NCBI RefSeq assembly: GCF_029227855.1
Contig: NZ_CP074356.1
Strand: one strand, 5' to 3'
Length of the DNA: 64,000 nucleotides
DNA from: Escherichia coli
GTDB taxonomy: Bacteria > Pseudomonadota > Gammaproteobacteria > Enterobacterales > Enterobacteriaceae
In this document: in pieces, positions 3,996 to 8,940 of the stretch
Position numbering within the stretch: position 1 is the first letter of the stretch
Layout of the letters: each line of letters starts with the position of its first letter
Notes under the pieces: model-generated
What the model was told of the DNA's origin: nothing
Databases searched by the model: none
The model's input: the letters and a program-made list of their open reading frames with translations, nothing else
Program-made: the position numbers and the translations under genes

Positions 3996-4427
3996 ATGAA
4001 AATCGAAGCTAATTCCCTTACTCATCCCTATGACTACAACGCCTCACTGAACAATTATTTACATTATTTTGAGAATTTCTCTCGTAATGACTGGAATAAA
4101 GATTCATGTGGAGGATATTTTACTTTTAGAGATGATGACAGAGAGTGTGTTTTGTTTTTTGTGAATTATGGTGATAATTTTTCATTGCGCTATGATTGTA
4201 CACAAAGTTCTGATGGAATAGTGTCATGCTGGTATAGTAACCATGAAGATGATAAAATGAATATCATCGTCGATGCTGATACAGAACAATTTATCCCTTT
4301 AGGTTCTTGCTTACCTCCTGATATTACTTTATCAGTAATAAAAGATTTTTTCAAAAATCCTTTAGAGAAATCAAAAAAAGTAAAATGGATGAATGCAGAT
4401 GACATTGACTGGTCATCTGTGTATTAA
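3996..4427 (+). CDS. Hypothetical protein, possible orphan immunity protein
   Basis: An ORF of ~143 aa (from MKIEANS; an upstream ATG at 3984 is also possible) with AT-rich composition, lying in the island downstream of the Rhs toxin. No recognisable catalytic motif. Confidence 0.4.
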   Translation: MKIEANSLTHPYDYNASLNNYLHYFENFSRNDWNKDSCGGYFTFRDDDRECVLFFVNYGDNFSLRYDCTQSSDGIVSCWYSNHEDDKMNIIVDADTEQFIPLGSCLPPDITLSVIKDFFKNPLEKSKKVKWMNADDIDWSSVY

Positions 4428-5289
4428 AGTTGGATTGGATAATTATCTGTTTCAAAAATCATTAAATTTAGAACCTATCTGTTCAACAGAGCTGCCTTGA
4501 ACAGCAGGTTCTTTTATGATGTCCAGGAGCGAATATGCCTGTGATGTCTGGCACTCAGCATCTGACTGACCTGGACTACTGATCCTACTCACACAGGGAG
4601 CTAGACCTGGAAGCAACCTACTGTAAGCAGTGCAGTAGCAGCCCACCTCACATCAGTCCTTGCAAGGTGTGGGCCTTTGTGATCTTGCTCTGTATTGCTG
4701 AGATCCTCAGGAAGGACTCGAAATTTAATCAGGAAGGCCGTTGCTAAAAATCAAAAAATAAATTCAAGAGCAATTTCTAAAACTTTTGAATCTACTGTAT
4801 CGGATGAGGTTTTCACTCCTTTCCAAAAGGTGAGTTTTCAAGCATTCAAGTTTCTGTTATGACCAAAACTTCACCATTTAACACTAATCCGAGTATTATG
4901 TTACCATGAAGAAAAAAGATATTAGATTTGCAATATCCATTAACTCCAACTCAAGTAAGATAGAATTAATGGAAAAATTAAAAACATAATCCCAGGGCTT
5001 ATTGAAATAACTCCCAGTGCATTAAGAGAAGAAAAAACATGGTAGTTATTGAAGATAATGATCTTTATGACTCTATAAAAGCAGAGGGAGTTGATGGATG
5101 GATGTATTATAAATTCATATTATCCATATTCCCATTAAAGGGAGTAGACACAACATTAGAATATCAACGGAAATTATCTTTTCTTTTCTTAAAGAAATTA
5201 AAAGATGCGGGTCTGTTAGGTGAACTTATATGCGAGGATGATTTTCATGACTGATGACCTCTACATATATCCTCAGTTCGTGGCTGGTA

Positions 5290-5631
5290 TTACATGATCT
5301 GACAGGGAAAGATCGTAGCGAAATCAAAAAAGACGTGGATTTCCCGGAAGCCGGTGAAGACACGGCGCTCTGCGACAAGGAGACTAAACCGCCGAGGATA
5401 GCCCAGGGCAGCAGCAACGTTTTTATCAACAATCAGCCTGCCGCACGCCAGGGAGACAAACTGGAGTGCAGTGCGGCGATCGTGGAAGGTTCGCCGGACG
5501 TCTTTATTGGGGGTGAGCAGGTCACCTATCTGGATATCCAGCCGGAGTTCCCGCCGTGGCAGAGAATGATCCTGGGGGGAATAACGATAGCCAGCTATCT
5601 TCTGCCGCCAGCGCAGGGAAAGATCACGTAA
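5290..5631 (+). pseudogene. PAAR-domain fragment, probably the C-terminal part of the N-terminal PAAR region of a T6SS-type Rhs or PAAR protein
   Basis: A GC-rich segment inside the 5254..5631 ORF encodes IAQGSSNVFINNQPAARQGDKLECSAAIVEGSPDVFIGG, matching the PAAR motif pattern. The composition shifts abruptly near 5290, and no credible N-terminus or Rhs core follows. Confidence 0.5.
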
Positions 5632-5700
5632 CGCTGCTTTTTTGTACTAAATAATTCGCACTAAATGTTCAATAATTGAGATATTCCTTATTACCTAAAT
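5614..5700 (+). repeat. Direct repeat copy 1 (~90 bp; cagggaaagatca...tttgtactaaataattcgca...gatattcc.tattacctaaa)
   Basis: About 80% identical by eye to 7645..7738. It lies at the 3' junction of the PAAR fragment. Confidence 0.6.
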
Positions 5701-5750
5701 ACAGTTCCACCAAGATTACCTAAACCCAAATGAGGTAAAAGATAGTGGGT

Positions 5751-6112
5751 ATGAATAAAAATGAAATCCATTTCCCTATAGGATATGGTTGGTTGAATGA
5801 AAAAAAATTATTGGCACCAGTGAATTTAGCCAATTAGAACCATGGTTTTATCTAGATGAGAACAGGTGTTTTTTTGCGAATAAAAAATGGCCAAATGTCA
5901 TAGGTGAACAATTATTCGCTTTTGCTAAACGTCAAGATAATGATGAATTGGCTTGTTTCAAAATTAATGAATCTGGAGTCTGTGAGGGTGTTTATTTAAT
6001 TAATGGGTGGACTCCTAACGGGTTTGATATTATACAATTTTACCCTGATTTTTGGGAATGGGTACATTTGGTTATACAAGATGTCTCGGAGTGGATTGAT
6101 AATAAAGGATAA
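5751..6112 (+). pseudogene. Frameshifted immunity-like gene; any family resemblance (e.g. SMI1/KNR4-like) is tentative
   Basis: ATG at 5751 gives MNKNEIHFPIGYGWLNEKKLLAPVNLAN then a stop. The +1 frame continues KKIIGTSEFSQLEPWFYLDENRCFF...EWIDNKG to 6112. The frame break coincides with an A8 homopolymer near 5803-5810. Confidence 0.35.
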
Positions 6113-6141
6113 TTTGAAACAAAAGTAAAAAACCGCCTTCA

Positions 6142-6840
6142 TTGAAGGTAACGTGGAGTGGTGGGCGGAGCAGCCTGCCCGCAGACACAGACTACCCGGA
6201 CCCGCGCGGGGAGCGGGACGCGGAAGCCGACCCCGGCCTGCTGTATGCAGGACAGTGGCAGGATGCGGAATCCGGACTGTGCTATAACCGGTTCCGGTAT
6301 TACGAGCCGGAAACCGGGATGTACCTGGTGAGTGATCCCCTGGGGTTGCTGGGGGGTGAGCAGACTTACCGGTATGTGCCTAATCCTAGTGGGTATGTTG
6401 ATCCTCTGGGATTAGCAACGTGTCCTATACTCAGACAGTGGGCGCTGACTAACCTTGAAGCCAGTCGGGCAGCAAGGGCTGCATCTAATTTTGGTAAGCC
6501 TCTGGTCCAGCGAAATAAAACGATTGGCGATAAAGTAAGGGATATGATTGCCAAAGAGAGGGGAACCACTCTAATTGAACAAAATTATAGAGTGACAGGA
6601 GGATTAAAGCGTATTGACGTTGTTGATGGAGTAACGGGTATAGAATCTAAAGTCGATCGAACAGGGTTAACAACCCGAGTACGGCAAGAGGTAGCGCGGG
6701 ATATTAAGATTTTGAGAAGTGAGCAACTTGATCAAATTGAATGGGTGTTTACAAGAAGTTCAACTACAGGGAAGATTGGGCCAACTAAACCACTTGAAGA
6801 TCTTTTAAATAAACATGGTATACCGATTATTTATCGATAA
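6142..6840 (+). CDS. Orphan Rhs C-terminal module: core-end repeat (DPLGL) plus an alternative toxin domain, possibly a PD-(D/E)xK-like nuclease
   Basis: Positions ~6176-6500 are near-identical to 2310-2630 (the end of the first Rhs core plus 26 codons). The sequences then diverge into a different C-terminal domain containing RIDVVDGVTGIESKVDRTG. The reported ATG at 6142 is probably not the native start. Confidence 0.7.
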   Translation: MKVTWSGGRSSLPADTDYPDPRGERDAEADPGLLYAGQWQDAESGLCYNRFRYYEPETGMYLVSDPLGLLGGEQTYRYVPNPSGYVDPLGLATCPILRQWALTNLEASRAARAASNFGKPLVQRNKTIGDKVRDMIAKERGTTLIEQNYRVTGGLKRIDVVDGVTGIESKVDRTGLTTRVRQEVARDIKILRSEQLDQIEWVFTRSSTTGKIGPTKPLEDLLNKHGIPIIYR

Positions 6841-6851
6841 GGAGTGATAGT

Positions 6852-7409
6852 GTGAAACTCAAACCGATTGGTGACTTTTTAAACAAAAATGGGTTTATAA
6901 AAAATGGTAACAATGATTTTTATAAAGTTCATGATAAGTTTGTAAATTGTATAAATTTTCAAAAAAAGAGTACAGGTGATATTTTTTTTATAAACACAGG
7001 TGTTCATCCTGTGTTCGAAAATTTTTGCAATGAACCACCGAAAAAAGAAATAGATTGTTACATCCGTAACCGTGTGTGTGATGGACTAAGTATATCTTTG
7101 CTGCATTCTTTTGAAGGTAGTGAGTTTGTTATCAGTGAGATAAAAAACAAAGCGTTTTGTTTTTTTGAATACTTTGATTCATTGAATAAAATATTCGATG
7201 CTATTCGTGTTGTAGATATTGAAGAGAGAAATATTTGCGATGAGCTAAGTGGTGTAAGCAGCGTAAGATTAGCTTTGATGTGTATGAACTACCAGTATGA
7301 GAAAAAAAAATTTAGCCTTGTTTCTGATTTTGCGAACTATGGTCTTGCTATATCTAGAGGCCCGGTACCGAAAAAAGCATTTAAGGATATGATAAAAATA
7401 ACAGAGTGA
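6852..7409 (+). CDS. Putative immunity protein for the orphan Rhs toxin module
   Basis: A 185-aa ORF with a GTG start 12 bp after the toxin stop, preceded by AGGAG at 6841-6845. AT-rich. Confidence 0.5.
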   Translation: MKLKPIGDFLNKNGFIKNGNNDFYKVHDKFVNCINFQKKSTGDIFFINTGVHPVFENFCNEPPKKEIDCYIRNRVCDGLSISLLHSFEGSEFVISEIKNKAFCFFEYFDSLNKIFDAIRVVDIEERNICDELSGVSSVRLALMCMNYQYEKKKFSLVSDFANYGLAISRGPVPKKAFKDMIKITE

Positions 7410-7419
7410 TACCTAATCC

Positions 7420-7650
7420 GGTGTAATACTTGCTGCCTGTGTACCGCGAAGATTAACGGCCGGGAGGAAACTATTCTCTACAACCGGGACGCCACAGGCC
7501 GCCTGGCAGAAGTCATCACGCCGGAAGGCAAAACGCAGTATGCGTATGACAAATCCGGCAGGCTGACGGGTATCTTCAGCCCGGACGACACATCACAGCG
7601 CACCGGCTATGAAGAACGCGGGCGGGTGAATGTCACCACTCAGGGCAGGG
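7420..7650 (+). pseudogene. Internal Rhs core fragment
   Basis: About 215 bp nearly identical to 1021-1230 of the first Rhs core (encoding ...EETILY..RLAEVITPEGKTQYAYDKSGRLTGIFSPD...). Homology is lost at the cagggaaagatca junction. Confidence 0.6.
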
Positions 7651-7738
7651 AAAGATCATCCAAAGTACACTTTTTGTACTAAATAATTCGCATTTTATGT
7701 TTAAAAATGGAGATATTCCTCATTACCTAAAGCTGTTT
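7645..7738 (+). repeat. Direct repeat copy 2 (~90 bp), immediately upstream of the ISAs1-family transposase
   Basis: Matches 5614..5700 in sequence. It may be the left end of the H-repeat element or a recombination scar. Confidence 0.6.
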
Positions 7739-7739
7739 T

Positions 7740-8940
7740 TTATTGCTTATACATGATCAAATACTCCTTACATAATTAAGGAGAACAAAATGGAACTTAA
7801 AAAATTGATGGAACATATTTCTATTATCCCCGATTACAGACAAGCCTGGAAAGTGGAACATAAATTATCGGATATTCTGCTGTTGACTATTTGTGCCGTT
7901 ATTTCGGGTGCAGAAGGCTGGGAAGATATAGAGGATTTTGGGGAAACACATCTCGATTTTTTGAAGCAATATGGTGATTTTGATAATGGTATTCCTGTTC
8001 ACGATACCATCGCCAGAGTTATATCCTGTATCAGTCCTTCAAAATTTCACGAGTGTTTTATTAACTGGATGCGAGATTGCCATACTTCAGATGATAAAGA
8101 CGTCATCGCAATTGATGGAAAAACACTCCGGCATTCTTATGACAAGAGTCGCCGCAAGGGAGCGATTCATGTCATTAGTGCGTTCTCAACAATGCACAGT
8201 CTGGTCATCGGACAGATCAGGACGGATGAGAAATCCAATGAAATTACAGCTATCCCTGAACTTCTTAACATGCTGGATATTAAAGGAAAAATCATCACAA
8301 CTGATGCGATGGGTTGCCAGAAAGATATTGCAGAGAAGATACAAAAACAGGGCGGTGATTATTTATTCGCTGTAAAAGGAAACCAGGGGCGGCTAAATAA
8401 AGCCTTCGAGGAAAAATTTCCGCTGAAAGAATTAAATAATCCAGAGCATGACAGTTACGCCATTAGTGAAAAGAGTCACGGCAGAGAAGAAATCCGTCTT
8501 CATATTGTTTGCGATGTCCCTGATGAACTTATTGATTTCACGTTTGAATGGAAAGGACTGAAGAAATTATGCGTGGCAGTCTCTTTTCGGTCAATAATAG
8601 CAGAACAAAAGAAAGAGCCAGAAATGACGGTCAGATATTATATCAGTTCTGCTGATTTAACCGCAGAGAAGTTCGCCACAGCAATCCGAAACCACTGGCG
8701 CGTGGAGAATAAGCTGCACTGGCGTCTGGACGTGGTAATGAATGAAGACGACTGCAAAATAAGAAGAGGAAACGCCGCAGAATTATTTTCAGGGATACGG
8801 CACATCGCTATTAATATTTTAACGAATGATAAGGTATTCAAGGCAGGGTTAAGACGTAAGATGCGAAAAGCAGCCATGGACAGAAACTATCTCGCGTCAG
8901 TCCTTGCGGGGAGCGGGCTTTCGTAATCTTGCCCTGCGTT
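7740..8940 (+). mobile_element. ISAs1-family (H-repeat) insertion element; boundaries approximate
   Basis: Contains one intact transposase ORF. The terminal inverted repeats could not be delimited by eye. Confidence 0.4.
7790..8926 (+). CDS. ISAs1-family transposase (H-repeat-associated protein; YhhI/YdcC/YbfD-like)
   Basis: A 378-aa ORF ([32 protein letters not shown]...[31 protein letters not shown]) recognised as the H-repeat protein family found inside Rhs elements. Confidence 0.85.

What the first reader, a model, noticed from the sequence alone, without database searches (positions are those of the whole stretch)
5303..7738. Recurrent junction motif cagggaaagatc(a) at three breakpoints, two followed by a ~90-bp direct repeat
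The 12-13-mer occurs at 5303-5314 (start of the PAAR fragment), 5614-5626 (end of the PAAR fragment) and 7645-7657 (end of the Rhs core fragment). Three copies within 2.4 kb are very unlikely by chance. The latter two are each followed by a related ~90-bp sequence (tttgtactaaataattcgca...attacctaaa), one of which abuts the ISAs1 transposase. This could be an IS end, a site-specific recombination site or a microhomology used in repeated template switching.
Basis: seen in the sequence. Interest (0 to 1): 0.5.

Follow-up and report, generated by a model that had tools for sequence, protein, structure and literature searches.

The report
ISEc1 (H-rpt) insertion-sequence end relics
The recurring 12-base motif is the outer tip of a very common E. 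coli insertion sequence (ISEc1, also called H-rpt), present here once as a whole element and twice as leftover stubs, so toxin-gene fragments stop exactly at it; this is ordinary and already known.

Summary
CAGGGAAAGATC occurs exactly at 5303, 5614 and 7646. A fourth copy at 63420 is an unrelated coding coincidence in fetA.

The motif is the first 12-13 bp of the left terminal inverted repeat of ISEc1/H-rpt (ISAs1 family).
- 7646-8936 is a complete 1291-bp copy, 96.4% identical to K-12 H-rptB. Its transposase scores 416.8 bits against NF033564, and its inverted partner ends at 8936.
- The "~90-bp repeat" is the non-coding left end of the IS.
- 5614-5699 is an 86-bp left-end stub. It matches 83/86 to the complete ISEc1 at the same locus in O157 Sakai.
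- 5303-5314 is a 12-bp stub.

Homology of the Rhs fragments to the intact rhs gene stops exactly at the motif. In more than ten copies with different flanks, IS homology starts exactly at CAGGG. In other strains the junctions at this island also sit at IS ends; one example is a ~71-bp flank deletion that begins at the right end.

The site-specific-recombination and template-switch readings are not supported. How the two stubs arose is inferred only, and no intermediates were found in 5,426 genomes.

Defective H-rpt copies inside Rhs loci, such as K-12 RhsC, are long known. Interest is low.

The parts
7646..8936 (+). Complete ISEc1 / H-rpt insertion sequence (ISAs1 family), 1291 bp
   Evidence: 96.4% identical over its full length to K-12 H-rptB (L002 6235-7525, gene yhhI). 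It is 95-98% identical to copies in 09-00049, GF43, Sakai, F138 and K-12 RhsC/RhsE, and homology starts and stops at these coordinates despite unrelated flanks. RefSeq calls the orthologous gene 'ISAs1-like element ISEc1 family transposase', and Sakai annotates 'ISEc1 Family: ISAs1'.
7646..7658 (+).
   Evidence: The first 13 bp are invariant in 12 of 13 left ends compared. It pairs with the right-end tip at 11 of 13 positions (read).
8924..8936 (-). Right terminal inverted repeat tip (IRR); the reverse complement reads CAGGGCAAGATTA
   Evidence: The transposase stop codon (8924-8926) lies inside it.
7790..8926 (+). ISAs1-family DDE transposase gene (378 aa)
   Evidence: NCBIfam NF033564 'ISAs1 family transposase', 416.8 bits against a cut-off of 70, E = 5e-125. 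ORF.
7659..7789 (+). Non-coding left end of the IS between the IRL tip and the transposase ATG.
   Evidence: Alignment of 10 IS copies. There is no Rfam match and no significant fold or promoter enrichment.
5614..5699 (+). 86-bp left-end relic of a second ISEc1 subtype (motif copy 2 plus the repeat)
   Evidence: 83/86 identical to the first 86 bp of the complete ISEc1 upstream of nfrB in O157 Sakai, 80/86 to GF43 and K-12 C2, and 70/86 to the resident copy at 7646. Similarity ends at 5699.
5303..5314 (+). 12-bp left-tip relic (motif copy 1). Its inner side is fused to rhs nt 718.
   Evidence: 12/12 match to the IS tip exactly at the breakpoint. The same junction is conserved in 09-00049 (L004 12300) and GF43 (L005 9614) with different downstream structures. 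That it derives from the IS is inferred from position and identity; 12 bp cannot be proven by sequence alone.
4650..4692 (+). Right-end relic of a diverged ISAs1-family element (…ATCTTGCTCTG)
   Evidence: About 75% identical to the last ~45 bp of ISEc1 and ends in a degenerate CCCTG tip. The sequence to its right (from 4693) is the 3' end of the toxin plus the immunity gene of the main rhs gene in GF43.
5314..5613 (+). rhs fragment (PAAR region) equal to nt 718-1017 of the full-length rhs gene, bracketed by motif copies 1 and 2
   Evidence: 94.3% identical to L001 5663-5962 (gene 4946-9775). PGAP annotates it 'PAAR domain-containing protein, incomplete'.
7435..7645 (+). rhs core fragment that ends at the IRL of the complete IS
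   Evidence: 94.3% identical to L001 7818-8029. Homology ends at the first base of the IS.

Best explanation
The motif is the outermost 12-13 bp of the left terminal inverted repeat of ISEc1, the E. coli 'H-repeat' (H-rpt) of the ISAs1 family. The ~90-bp repeat is the non-coding left end of that IS. The window holds one complete copy (7646-8936), an 86-bp left-end stub of a sister subtype (5614-5699) and a 12-bp left-tip stub (5303-5314). It also holds a right-end stub of a more diverged relative (about 4650-4692). By analogy with other DDE insertion sequences, the tip is where the transposase binds and cuts. Insertions and IS-associated deletions or recombinations therefore begin exactly there, which is why rhs fragments in this orphan toxin/immunity array stop at the first base of the motif. 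The stubs are what remained after later events removed the rest of those IS copies. What is shown: the identity of the element, its exact ends, its inverted partner, the transposase family, and the coincidence of junctions with IS ends in several strains. What is inferred: transposase action at the tip, and the events and their order that produced the stubs. The leading candidates for those events are an IS insertion into a 5'-truncated rhs gene, followed by deletion or replacement with one end inside the IS.
For: Identity: 7646-8936 is 96.4% identical to K-12 H-rptB over 1291 bp. The transposase scores 416.8 bits against NF033564. The inverted partner is at 8926-8936.
Exact ends: copies in K-12 RhsB/RhsC/RhsE, 09-00049, GF43 (two copies), Sakai, F138 and Bone4 sit in unrelated flanks. 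In all of them homology begins at CAGGGAAAGATC and ends at ATCTT(G/T)CCCTG.
Relic 5614-5699 matches complete ISEc1 left ends at 83/86.
Breakpoints: rhs homology stops at the motif.
Other strains: the 12-mer junction is followed by a 3.8-kb rhs gene in 09-00049, by 150 bp and then a full IS in GF43, and by 300 bp and then the stub here. The terminal IS has five different left flanks. The window and GF43 lack about 71 bp that lie immediately beside the right end in Sakai, 09-00049 and F138.
Precedent: K-12 RhsC carries truncated H-rpt copies (bp 1-381; bp 25-911 plus 1225-1291) next to a full copy.
Family-level support: an ISAs1-family member has inverted repeats starting CAGGG (PMC6305408). H-rpt is reported within Rhs tips (PMC3032704).
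Against: None of about 12 copies examined has a target-site duplication, so no junction here can be shown to be a primary insertion. No genome among 5,426 has the predicted intermediates: left flank followed by a full IS, or IS right end followed by rhs nt 718. The 12-bp stub is too short for homology to be proven. Transposition of H-rpt has reportedly never been observed (PMC3032704). The ISfinder reference sequence could not be consulted.
Confidence: 0.93

Rival explanations
1. The stubs are scars of IS-anchored cassette acquisition rather than of insertion followed by deletion. In this reading, incoming DNA that ended in an ISEc1 copy recombined homologously within the resident terminal IS. 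At its other end it joined illegitimately 12 bp, and later 86 bp, inside that resident IS. Each event would add a new orphan cassette and leave a left-tip scar upstream of it.
For: All scars are left tips in the same orientation, lying upstream of successive cassettes, and a complete IS always closes the array next to nfrB. The 86-bp scar is the Sakai subtype while the current terminal IS has a different left end. Cassette 5700-7645 is absent from the 09-00049 arrangement, so deletion alone cannot derive one array from the other. IS copies are mosaic: the type of the bp 14-25 block does not track the rest of the IS, and the window and GF43 share the right flank but differ at the left end. The cassettes begin at arbitrary points, such as rhs nt 718 and upstream of an immunity gene.
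Against: No donor or intermediate was found. The 5700-7645 cassette with its IS junction occurs only in the same 110 genomes. The mosaic signal is weak outside bp 14-25. The same data fit an insertion plus separate deletion and gene-replacement events. In K-12 RhsC and in GF43 copy b, a stub is followed directly by a whole IS, which looks more like IS-into-IS insertion.
Confidence: 0.2
2. The motif is the core site of a site-specific recombinase (integron-, Xer- or shufflon-like) that shuffles rhs cassettes.
For: There are three direct copies at cassette boundaries.
Against: No tyrosine or serine recombinase gene lies in the island. The motif is the tip of an IS with an inverted partner and a DDE transposase. 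Other cassette boundaries in the same array (about 5700, 6171, 7435) lack it. The stub lengths are irregular: 12, 86, 110 and 381 bp.
Confidence: 0.02
3. The 12-mer is a microhomology used in repeated replication template switching between rhs copies.
For: It is a short identical sequence at three junctions.
Against: The intact rhs gene has no such sequence at the positions where the fragments break, so there was no homology to switch on. Two copies continue into 73 further bases of IS sequence. Only 1 nt (C) is shared at the 5314 joint.
Confidence: 0.02
4. The motif is a recurrent coding context with no link to breakpoints.
For: The fourth copy at 63420 is exactly that: the antisense of fetA codons LIFPW, conserved in K-12. 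The 5303 copy is also read in frame (T-G-K-D) by ORF 5254-5631.
Against: The three copies in the island lie outside rhs homology, and two lie in the non-coding IS end.
Confidence: 0.01

Closest known systems
H-rpt (H-repeat) / ISEc1 of E. coli K-12 (H-rptB = yhhI, H-rptE = ydcC, H-rptC1-C3 = ybfQ/ybfL/ybfD), ISAs1 family
   Same: Same element: 1291 bp, 96.4% nucleotide identity, the same CAGGGAAAGATCA tip, a 378-aa transposase, the same location at the distal end of an Rhs locus, the same orientation as rhs, and no target duplication. K-12 RhsC already shows truncated copies beside a full one. From memory, these were described by the Hill laboratory in the early 1990s; those papers are not held in the library.
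   Different: Only the particular stubs (12 bp and 86 bp) and their junctions with a 5'-truncated PAAR-rhs gene differ. These are specific to a lineage of about 110-170 of the 5,426 complete genomes.
ISAs1 family in general (for example ISArsp11 of Arthrobacter plasmids; prototype ISAs1 of Aeromonas salmonicida)
   Same: Single DDE transposase ORF, about 1.3 kb, and terminal inverted repeats that begin with CAGGG (PMC6305408).
   Different: ISArsp11 has a 10-bp direct repeat. None of the E. coli copies examined here has one.
Orphan rhs toxin/immunity arrays formed by 'C-terminal displacement' (Jackson et al. 2009, PMC2935791)
   Same: The setting is the same: a full-length PAAR-rhs gene followed by displaced core-tip/toxin/immunity modules.
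   Different: That model uses homologous recombination in the conserved core. Its main text has no match for 'insertion sequence', 'transposase' or 'H-rpt', and 'IS element' occurs only once, in a general remark on genome rearrangements. Here several module boundaries are IS ends, not core sequence.
IS-mediated adjacent deletions and solo IS-end remnants (classical for IS1, IS10 and IS903; from general knowledge)
   Same: A fixed IS end is joined to variable flanking DNA without a target duplication. The ~71-bp loss starts exactly at the right end, and there are five different left flanks.
   Different: The mechanism has not been demonstrated for ISEc1. The stubs also need a break inside the IS, which adjacent deletion does not give.

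Membership tests
ISAs1 family / ISEc1 (H-rpt) | Encodes an ISAs1-family DDE transposase | tested here: met
   NF033564, 416.8 bits against a cut-off of 70, covering profile positions 1-314 of 314.
ISAs1 family / ISEc1 (H-rpt) | Size of about 1.2-1.5 kb with a single ORF filling most of the element | tested here: met
   1291 bp (7646-8936) with one 378-aa ORF at 7790-8926.
ISAs1 family / ISEc1 (H-rpt) | Imperfect terminal inverted repeats that begin with CAGGG | tested here: met
   IRL is CAGGGAAAGATCA and the reverse complement of IRR is CAGGGCAAGATTA, matching at 11/13. Some copies have a perfect 11-bp repeat, for example GF43 with ATCTTTCCCTG. A family example is in PMC6305408.
ISAs1 family / ISEc1 (H-rpt) | Target-site duplication of 8-10 bp flanking the element | tested here: not met
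   No direct repeat flanks the window copy or 11 other copies. This fits flanks that were reshuffled after insertion. It does not bear on the identity of the element, but no junction can be called a primary insertion.
ISAs1 family / ISEc1 (H-rpt) | Near-identity to the named reference element | tested here: met
   96.4% identical to K-12 H-rptB. Curated labels read 'ISEc1 family' in 09-00049 and 'ISEc1 Family: ISAs1' in Sakai. The ISfinder entry itself could not be queried.
ISAs1 family / ISEc1 (H-rpt) | Demonstrated mobility (transposition) | not testable with these tools
   Reported as never observed for H-rpt (PMC3032704). Multiple positions among strains are indirect evidence only.
IS-end relic (86-bp stub at 5614-5699) | Colinear identity with the terminus of complete copies, starting at the exact tip | tested here: met
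   83/86 to the Sakai ISEc1 and 80/86 to GF43 and K-12 C2.
IS-end relic (12-bp stub at 5303-5314) | Derived from an IS end rather than a chance or native sequence | tested here: inconclusive
   It is a 12/12 match placed exactly at a breakpoint and is absent from the intact rhs gene there. Shuffles expect 0.02 exact copies per window. However, no ancestral full IS was found at that site in 5,426 genomes, and fetA shows that a chance copy can occur.
Site-specific recombination site | A cognate recombinase nearby and a site shared by all cassette boundaries | tested here: not met
   No recombinase gene is present in the island. Boundaries at about 5700, 6171 and 7435 lack the motif.

The most novel reading that the evidence does not exclude
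ISEc1/H-rpt may not be just debris. It may act as the downstream homology anchor through which E. coli Rhs islands take up new toxin/immunity cassettes. Incoming DNA ending in an H-rpt would cross over within the resident terminal H-rpt, while its other end joins illegitimately a few bases inside that H-rpt. This would leave a ladder of left-tip scars (here 12 bp and 86 bp) between successive orphan cassettes. It would explain why H-rpt is near-universal in E. coli, co-oriented with rhs, lacks target duplications and is mosaic at its left end.
Probability: 0.15. Interest if true: 0.4.

Novelty: already known. Interest (0 to 1): 0.12.

Why it matters
It matters little beyond annotation. It explains why three breakpoints in this Rhs orphan array share a sequence: they are ends of ISEc1/H-rpt. 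It also gives exact coordinates for one complete IS and three unannotated stubs, which PGAP leaves blank. The comparative data document that IS termini, not only the conserved rhs core, mark module boundaries in the cusS-nfrB type VI effector island. That is a modest addition to the usual 'C-terminal displacement' picture. If the IS-anchored acquisition idea were true, it would give the enigmatic, seemingly immobile H-rpt a role in the turnover of polymorphic toxins.

Tried and rejected
Approaches that led nowhere:
- RNA or structure reading of the 90-bp repeat. There was no Rfam hit at E <= 1 in 4400-9200. The folds are not better than shuffles, with z-scores of -1.5, +1.6 and -0.4.
- Promoter or terminator role. 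5 promoter-like sites were found against 6.1 expected.
- Ancestral intermediates for the 12-bp stub. A chimeric query of the left flank plus the full IS left end found no one-piece match in 5,426 genomes. A chimeric query of the IS right end plus rhs nt 718 found none either.
- Independent contexts for cassette 5700-7645 or for the core-fragment|IS junction. Only the same 110 genomes carry them.
- Target-site duplications. None was found in 12 copies, including 'plasmid' records, two of which (Bone4, F138) carry chromosomal gene context.
- Scans of species-representative genomes. The 12-mer|rhs junction was absent. The IS left-end pattern mostly hit E. coli-like contigs in metagenome bins and gave no complete flanked copy.
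- A recurrent inner breakpoint that would suggest a specific cleavage. Stub lengths are 12, 86, 110 and 381 bp, and one copy starts at bp 25, so there is no fixed site.
- Microhomology at the joints. Only 1 nt is shared at 5314. A nearby ATTACCTAAA duplicate (5690-5699 and 5715-5724) does not fit a simple microhomology deletion.
- The original Hill-laboratory papers on H-rpt are not held. Statements about them rest on memory.
Full report
**Observation.** The 12-mer CAGGGAAAGATC occurs exactly at 5303-5314, 5614-5625 and 7646-7657 on the + strand. There is a fourth exact copy at 63420-63431. Dinucleotide-preserving shuffles give 0.02 exact copies per window. The second and third copies are followed by related sequence: 5609-5699 against 7641-7731 is 91 nt at 81% identity. 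The fourth copy lies on the antisense strand of fetA, where it encodes L-I-F-P-W. It is identical in K-12 and has no IS similarity around it, so it is a coding coincidence.

**Setting.** The window is E. coli chromosome, 100% identical to strain JNEC-KY178. Bases 1 to about 8982 are the distal part of a type VI effector island (vgrG, DcrB-like chaperone, a 4.8-kb PAAR-rhs gene, immunity genes and orphan modules). The island is inserted between cusS and nfrB, where K-12 has only 24 bp.

**Fragments and junctions.** Comparison with the full-length rhs gene of the same island (L001 4946-9775) gives three matches:
- 5314-5613 equals nt 718-1017 (PAAR region), 94.3% identical.
- 7435-7645 equals a core segment, 94.3% identical.
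- 6171-6498 equals the core tip.

Base-by-base alignment shows that homology to the intact gene ends at the first base of the motif at 5614 and at 7646. It begins at the last base of the motif at 5303. The intact gene has unrelated sequence where the motifs sit. The motifs are therefore foreign to rhs and lie exactly at the junctions.

**What the motif is.**
- ORF 7790-8926 (378 aa) is an ISAs1-family transposase: NF033564, 416.8 bits against a cut-off of 70.
- Just past its stop codon, the reverse complement of 8926-8936 reads CAGGGCAAGAT.
- 7646-8936 (1291 bp) is 96.4% identical over its full length to K-12 H-rptB (yhhI).
- I compared copies from K-12 RhsB, RhsC and RhsE, strain 09-00049, GF43 (two copies), O157 Sakai, F138 and Bone4, all in unrelated flanks. 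In every case similarity starts at CAGGGAAAGATC and ends at ATCTT(G/T)CCCTG.
- RefSeq and the Sakai record label the element ISEc1, ISAs1 family.
- Another ISAs1-family member has inverted repeats that begin with CAGGG (PMC6305408).

The motif is therefore the tip of the left inverted repeat (IRL) of ISEc1/H-rpt. The '~90-bp repeat' is the non-coding left end that precedes the transposase start codon.

**The two other copies are stubs.**
- 5614-5699 matches the first 86 bp of complete ISEc1 copies. The match is 83/86 to the Sakai copy at the same locus and 80/86 to GF43 and K-12 C2. It is only 70/86 to the resident copy at 7646. It therefore comes from a different subtype and ends at 5699.
- 5303-5314 retains only the invariant 12 bp.
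- A further right-end stub of a diverged relative ends at 4692.

**Other strains.** They do.
- The joint immunity gene – 48 bp – 12-mer – rhs nt 718 is shared by three arrangements. In 09-00049 it is followed by a 3.8-kb rhs gene that lacks only its 5' end. In GF43 it is followed by 150 bp and then a complete IS. In this lineage it is followed by 300 bp and then the 86-bp stub. The 12-mer joint is therefore older than the IS joints downstream of it.
- The IS next to nfrB has five different left flanks in five strains.
- The window and GF43 lack about 71 bp that lie immediately beside the right IS end in Sakai, 09-00049 and F138. The loss starts exactly at the IS end.
- K-12 RhsC carries a 381-bp left stub, a full copy, and a copy starting at bp 25 with an internal deletion. 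GF43 has a 110-bp stub followed by an IS with a degenerate tip. Truncated H-rpt copies are thus a regular feature of Rhs loci, and their inner breakpoints are irregular.

**Mechanism.**
- Shown: the identity of the element, its ends, and the coincidence of junctions with those ends.
- Inferred from general knowledge of DDE insertion sequences: the tip is the transposase binding and cleavage site. Insertions and IS-associated deletions or recombinations therefore start there.
- Inferred for the stubs: a second break inside the IS is needed. One route is deletion after insertion. The other is integration of incoming DNA that crossed over in the resident IS on one side and joined illegitimately inside it on the other.

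I could not discriminate between the two routes for the stubs. No genome of 5,426 has the left flank followed by a whole IS, or an IS right end joined to rhs nt 718. The downstream cassette occurs only in the same 110 genomes. No copy has a target duplication. IS copies are mosaic at bp 14-25. That is compatible with recombination within the IS but does not prove it.

**Rejected readings.**
- Site-specific recombination site. There is no recombinase, and other module boundaries lack the motif.
- Template-switch microhomology. The intact gene lacks the motif at those positions.
- RNA element or promoter.

**Comparison with what is known.** This is the H-rpt/ISEc1 element of E. coli. Its left end is present in 5,335 of 5,426 complete genomes, with a median of about five places per genome. 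H-rpt within Rhs tips, with no observed transposition, is noted in PMC3032704. From memory, the defective H-rptC1-C3 copies were described by the Hill laboratory, but those papers are not held. The C-terminal displacement paper does not discuss insertion sequences at the boundaries.

**Verdict.** The feature is already known and of low interest.

Noticed in passing
window 63420-63431: Fourth exact copy of the 12-mer (13-mer with the following A). It lies on the antisense strand of fetA, codons L-I-F-P-W, and is identical in K-12. It is a chance coding match, which shows that a solo 12-mer is not by itself proof of IS origin.
   Followed up: yes
window 4650-4692 (possibly from about 4607): Unannotated right-end relic of a diverged ISAs1-family element (…GTGATCTTGCTCTG). 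It is fused to the 3' part of a toxin gene plus its immunity gene (4693-5254), which in strain GF43 form the end of the main rhs gene.
   Followed up: partly
window 5254-5631; L004 12251-16093: An ORF starts at a TGATG stop/start overlap with the upstream immunity gene and reads in frame through the 12-bp IS stub (T-G-K-D) into the PAAR fragment. In strain 09-00049 the same ORF is 1280 aa: a 5'-truncated PAAR-Rhs-toxin with a new 20-aa N-terminus. Expression is unknown.
   Followed up: partly
window 8937 onward, compared with L004 20668-20738, L009 10246 onward and L012 2997 onward: The window and GF43 lack about 71 bp that lie directly next to the right IS end in Sakai, 09-00049 and F138. The deletion begins exactly at the IS terminus.
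   Followed up: yes
window 7659-7670 and 5627-5638 (IS bp 14-25): Behind the invariant 13-bp tip is a 12-bp block with two discrete types, TCCAAAGTACAC-like and CGTAACGCTGCT-like. The type does not track the rest of the IS sequence among copies. The first type can pair with the following TGTACT.
   Followed up: partly
L005 15809-17209 (GF43); L007 9303-11926 (K-12 RhsC): These loci show nested or tandem IS remains. In GF43 a 110-bp left stub is followed directly by an IS whose tip is degenerate (TAGGAAAAGATC). In K-12, H-rptC1 (bp 1-381), C2 (full) and C3 (bp 25-911 plus 1225-1291) lie head to tail.
   Followed up: partly
window about 5753-6113: An immunity-like gene downstream of the 86-bp stub appears frameshifted here; the longest ORF is 54 aa and PGAP annotates no CDS. 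It is annotated intact (363 bp) in the closely related strain FDAARGOS_448 (L006 10019-10381).
   Followed up: no
window 5690-5699 and 5715-5724: ATTACCTAAA, the last 10 bp of the 86-bp stub, recurs 15 bp downstream in the non-IS flank. It may be a trace of the joining event or chance.
   Followed up: no
L001 22195-23953 (about window 15400-17150): envY, tRNA-Arg (argU) and fimZ are adjacent in the annotation of the identical strain. From memory, K-12 carries the DLP12 prophage at argU, so it appears to be absent here.
   Followed up: no
L006 6818-9433 (strain FDAARGOS_448): In a few sister genomes an IS66-family element (ISCro1-like) is inserted at the position equivalent to window 5226, just upstream of the 12-bp stub.
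   Followed up: no
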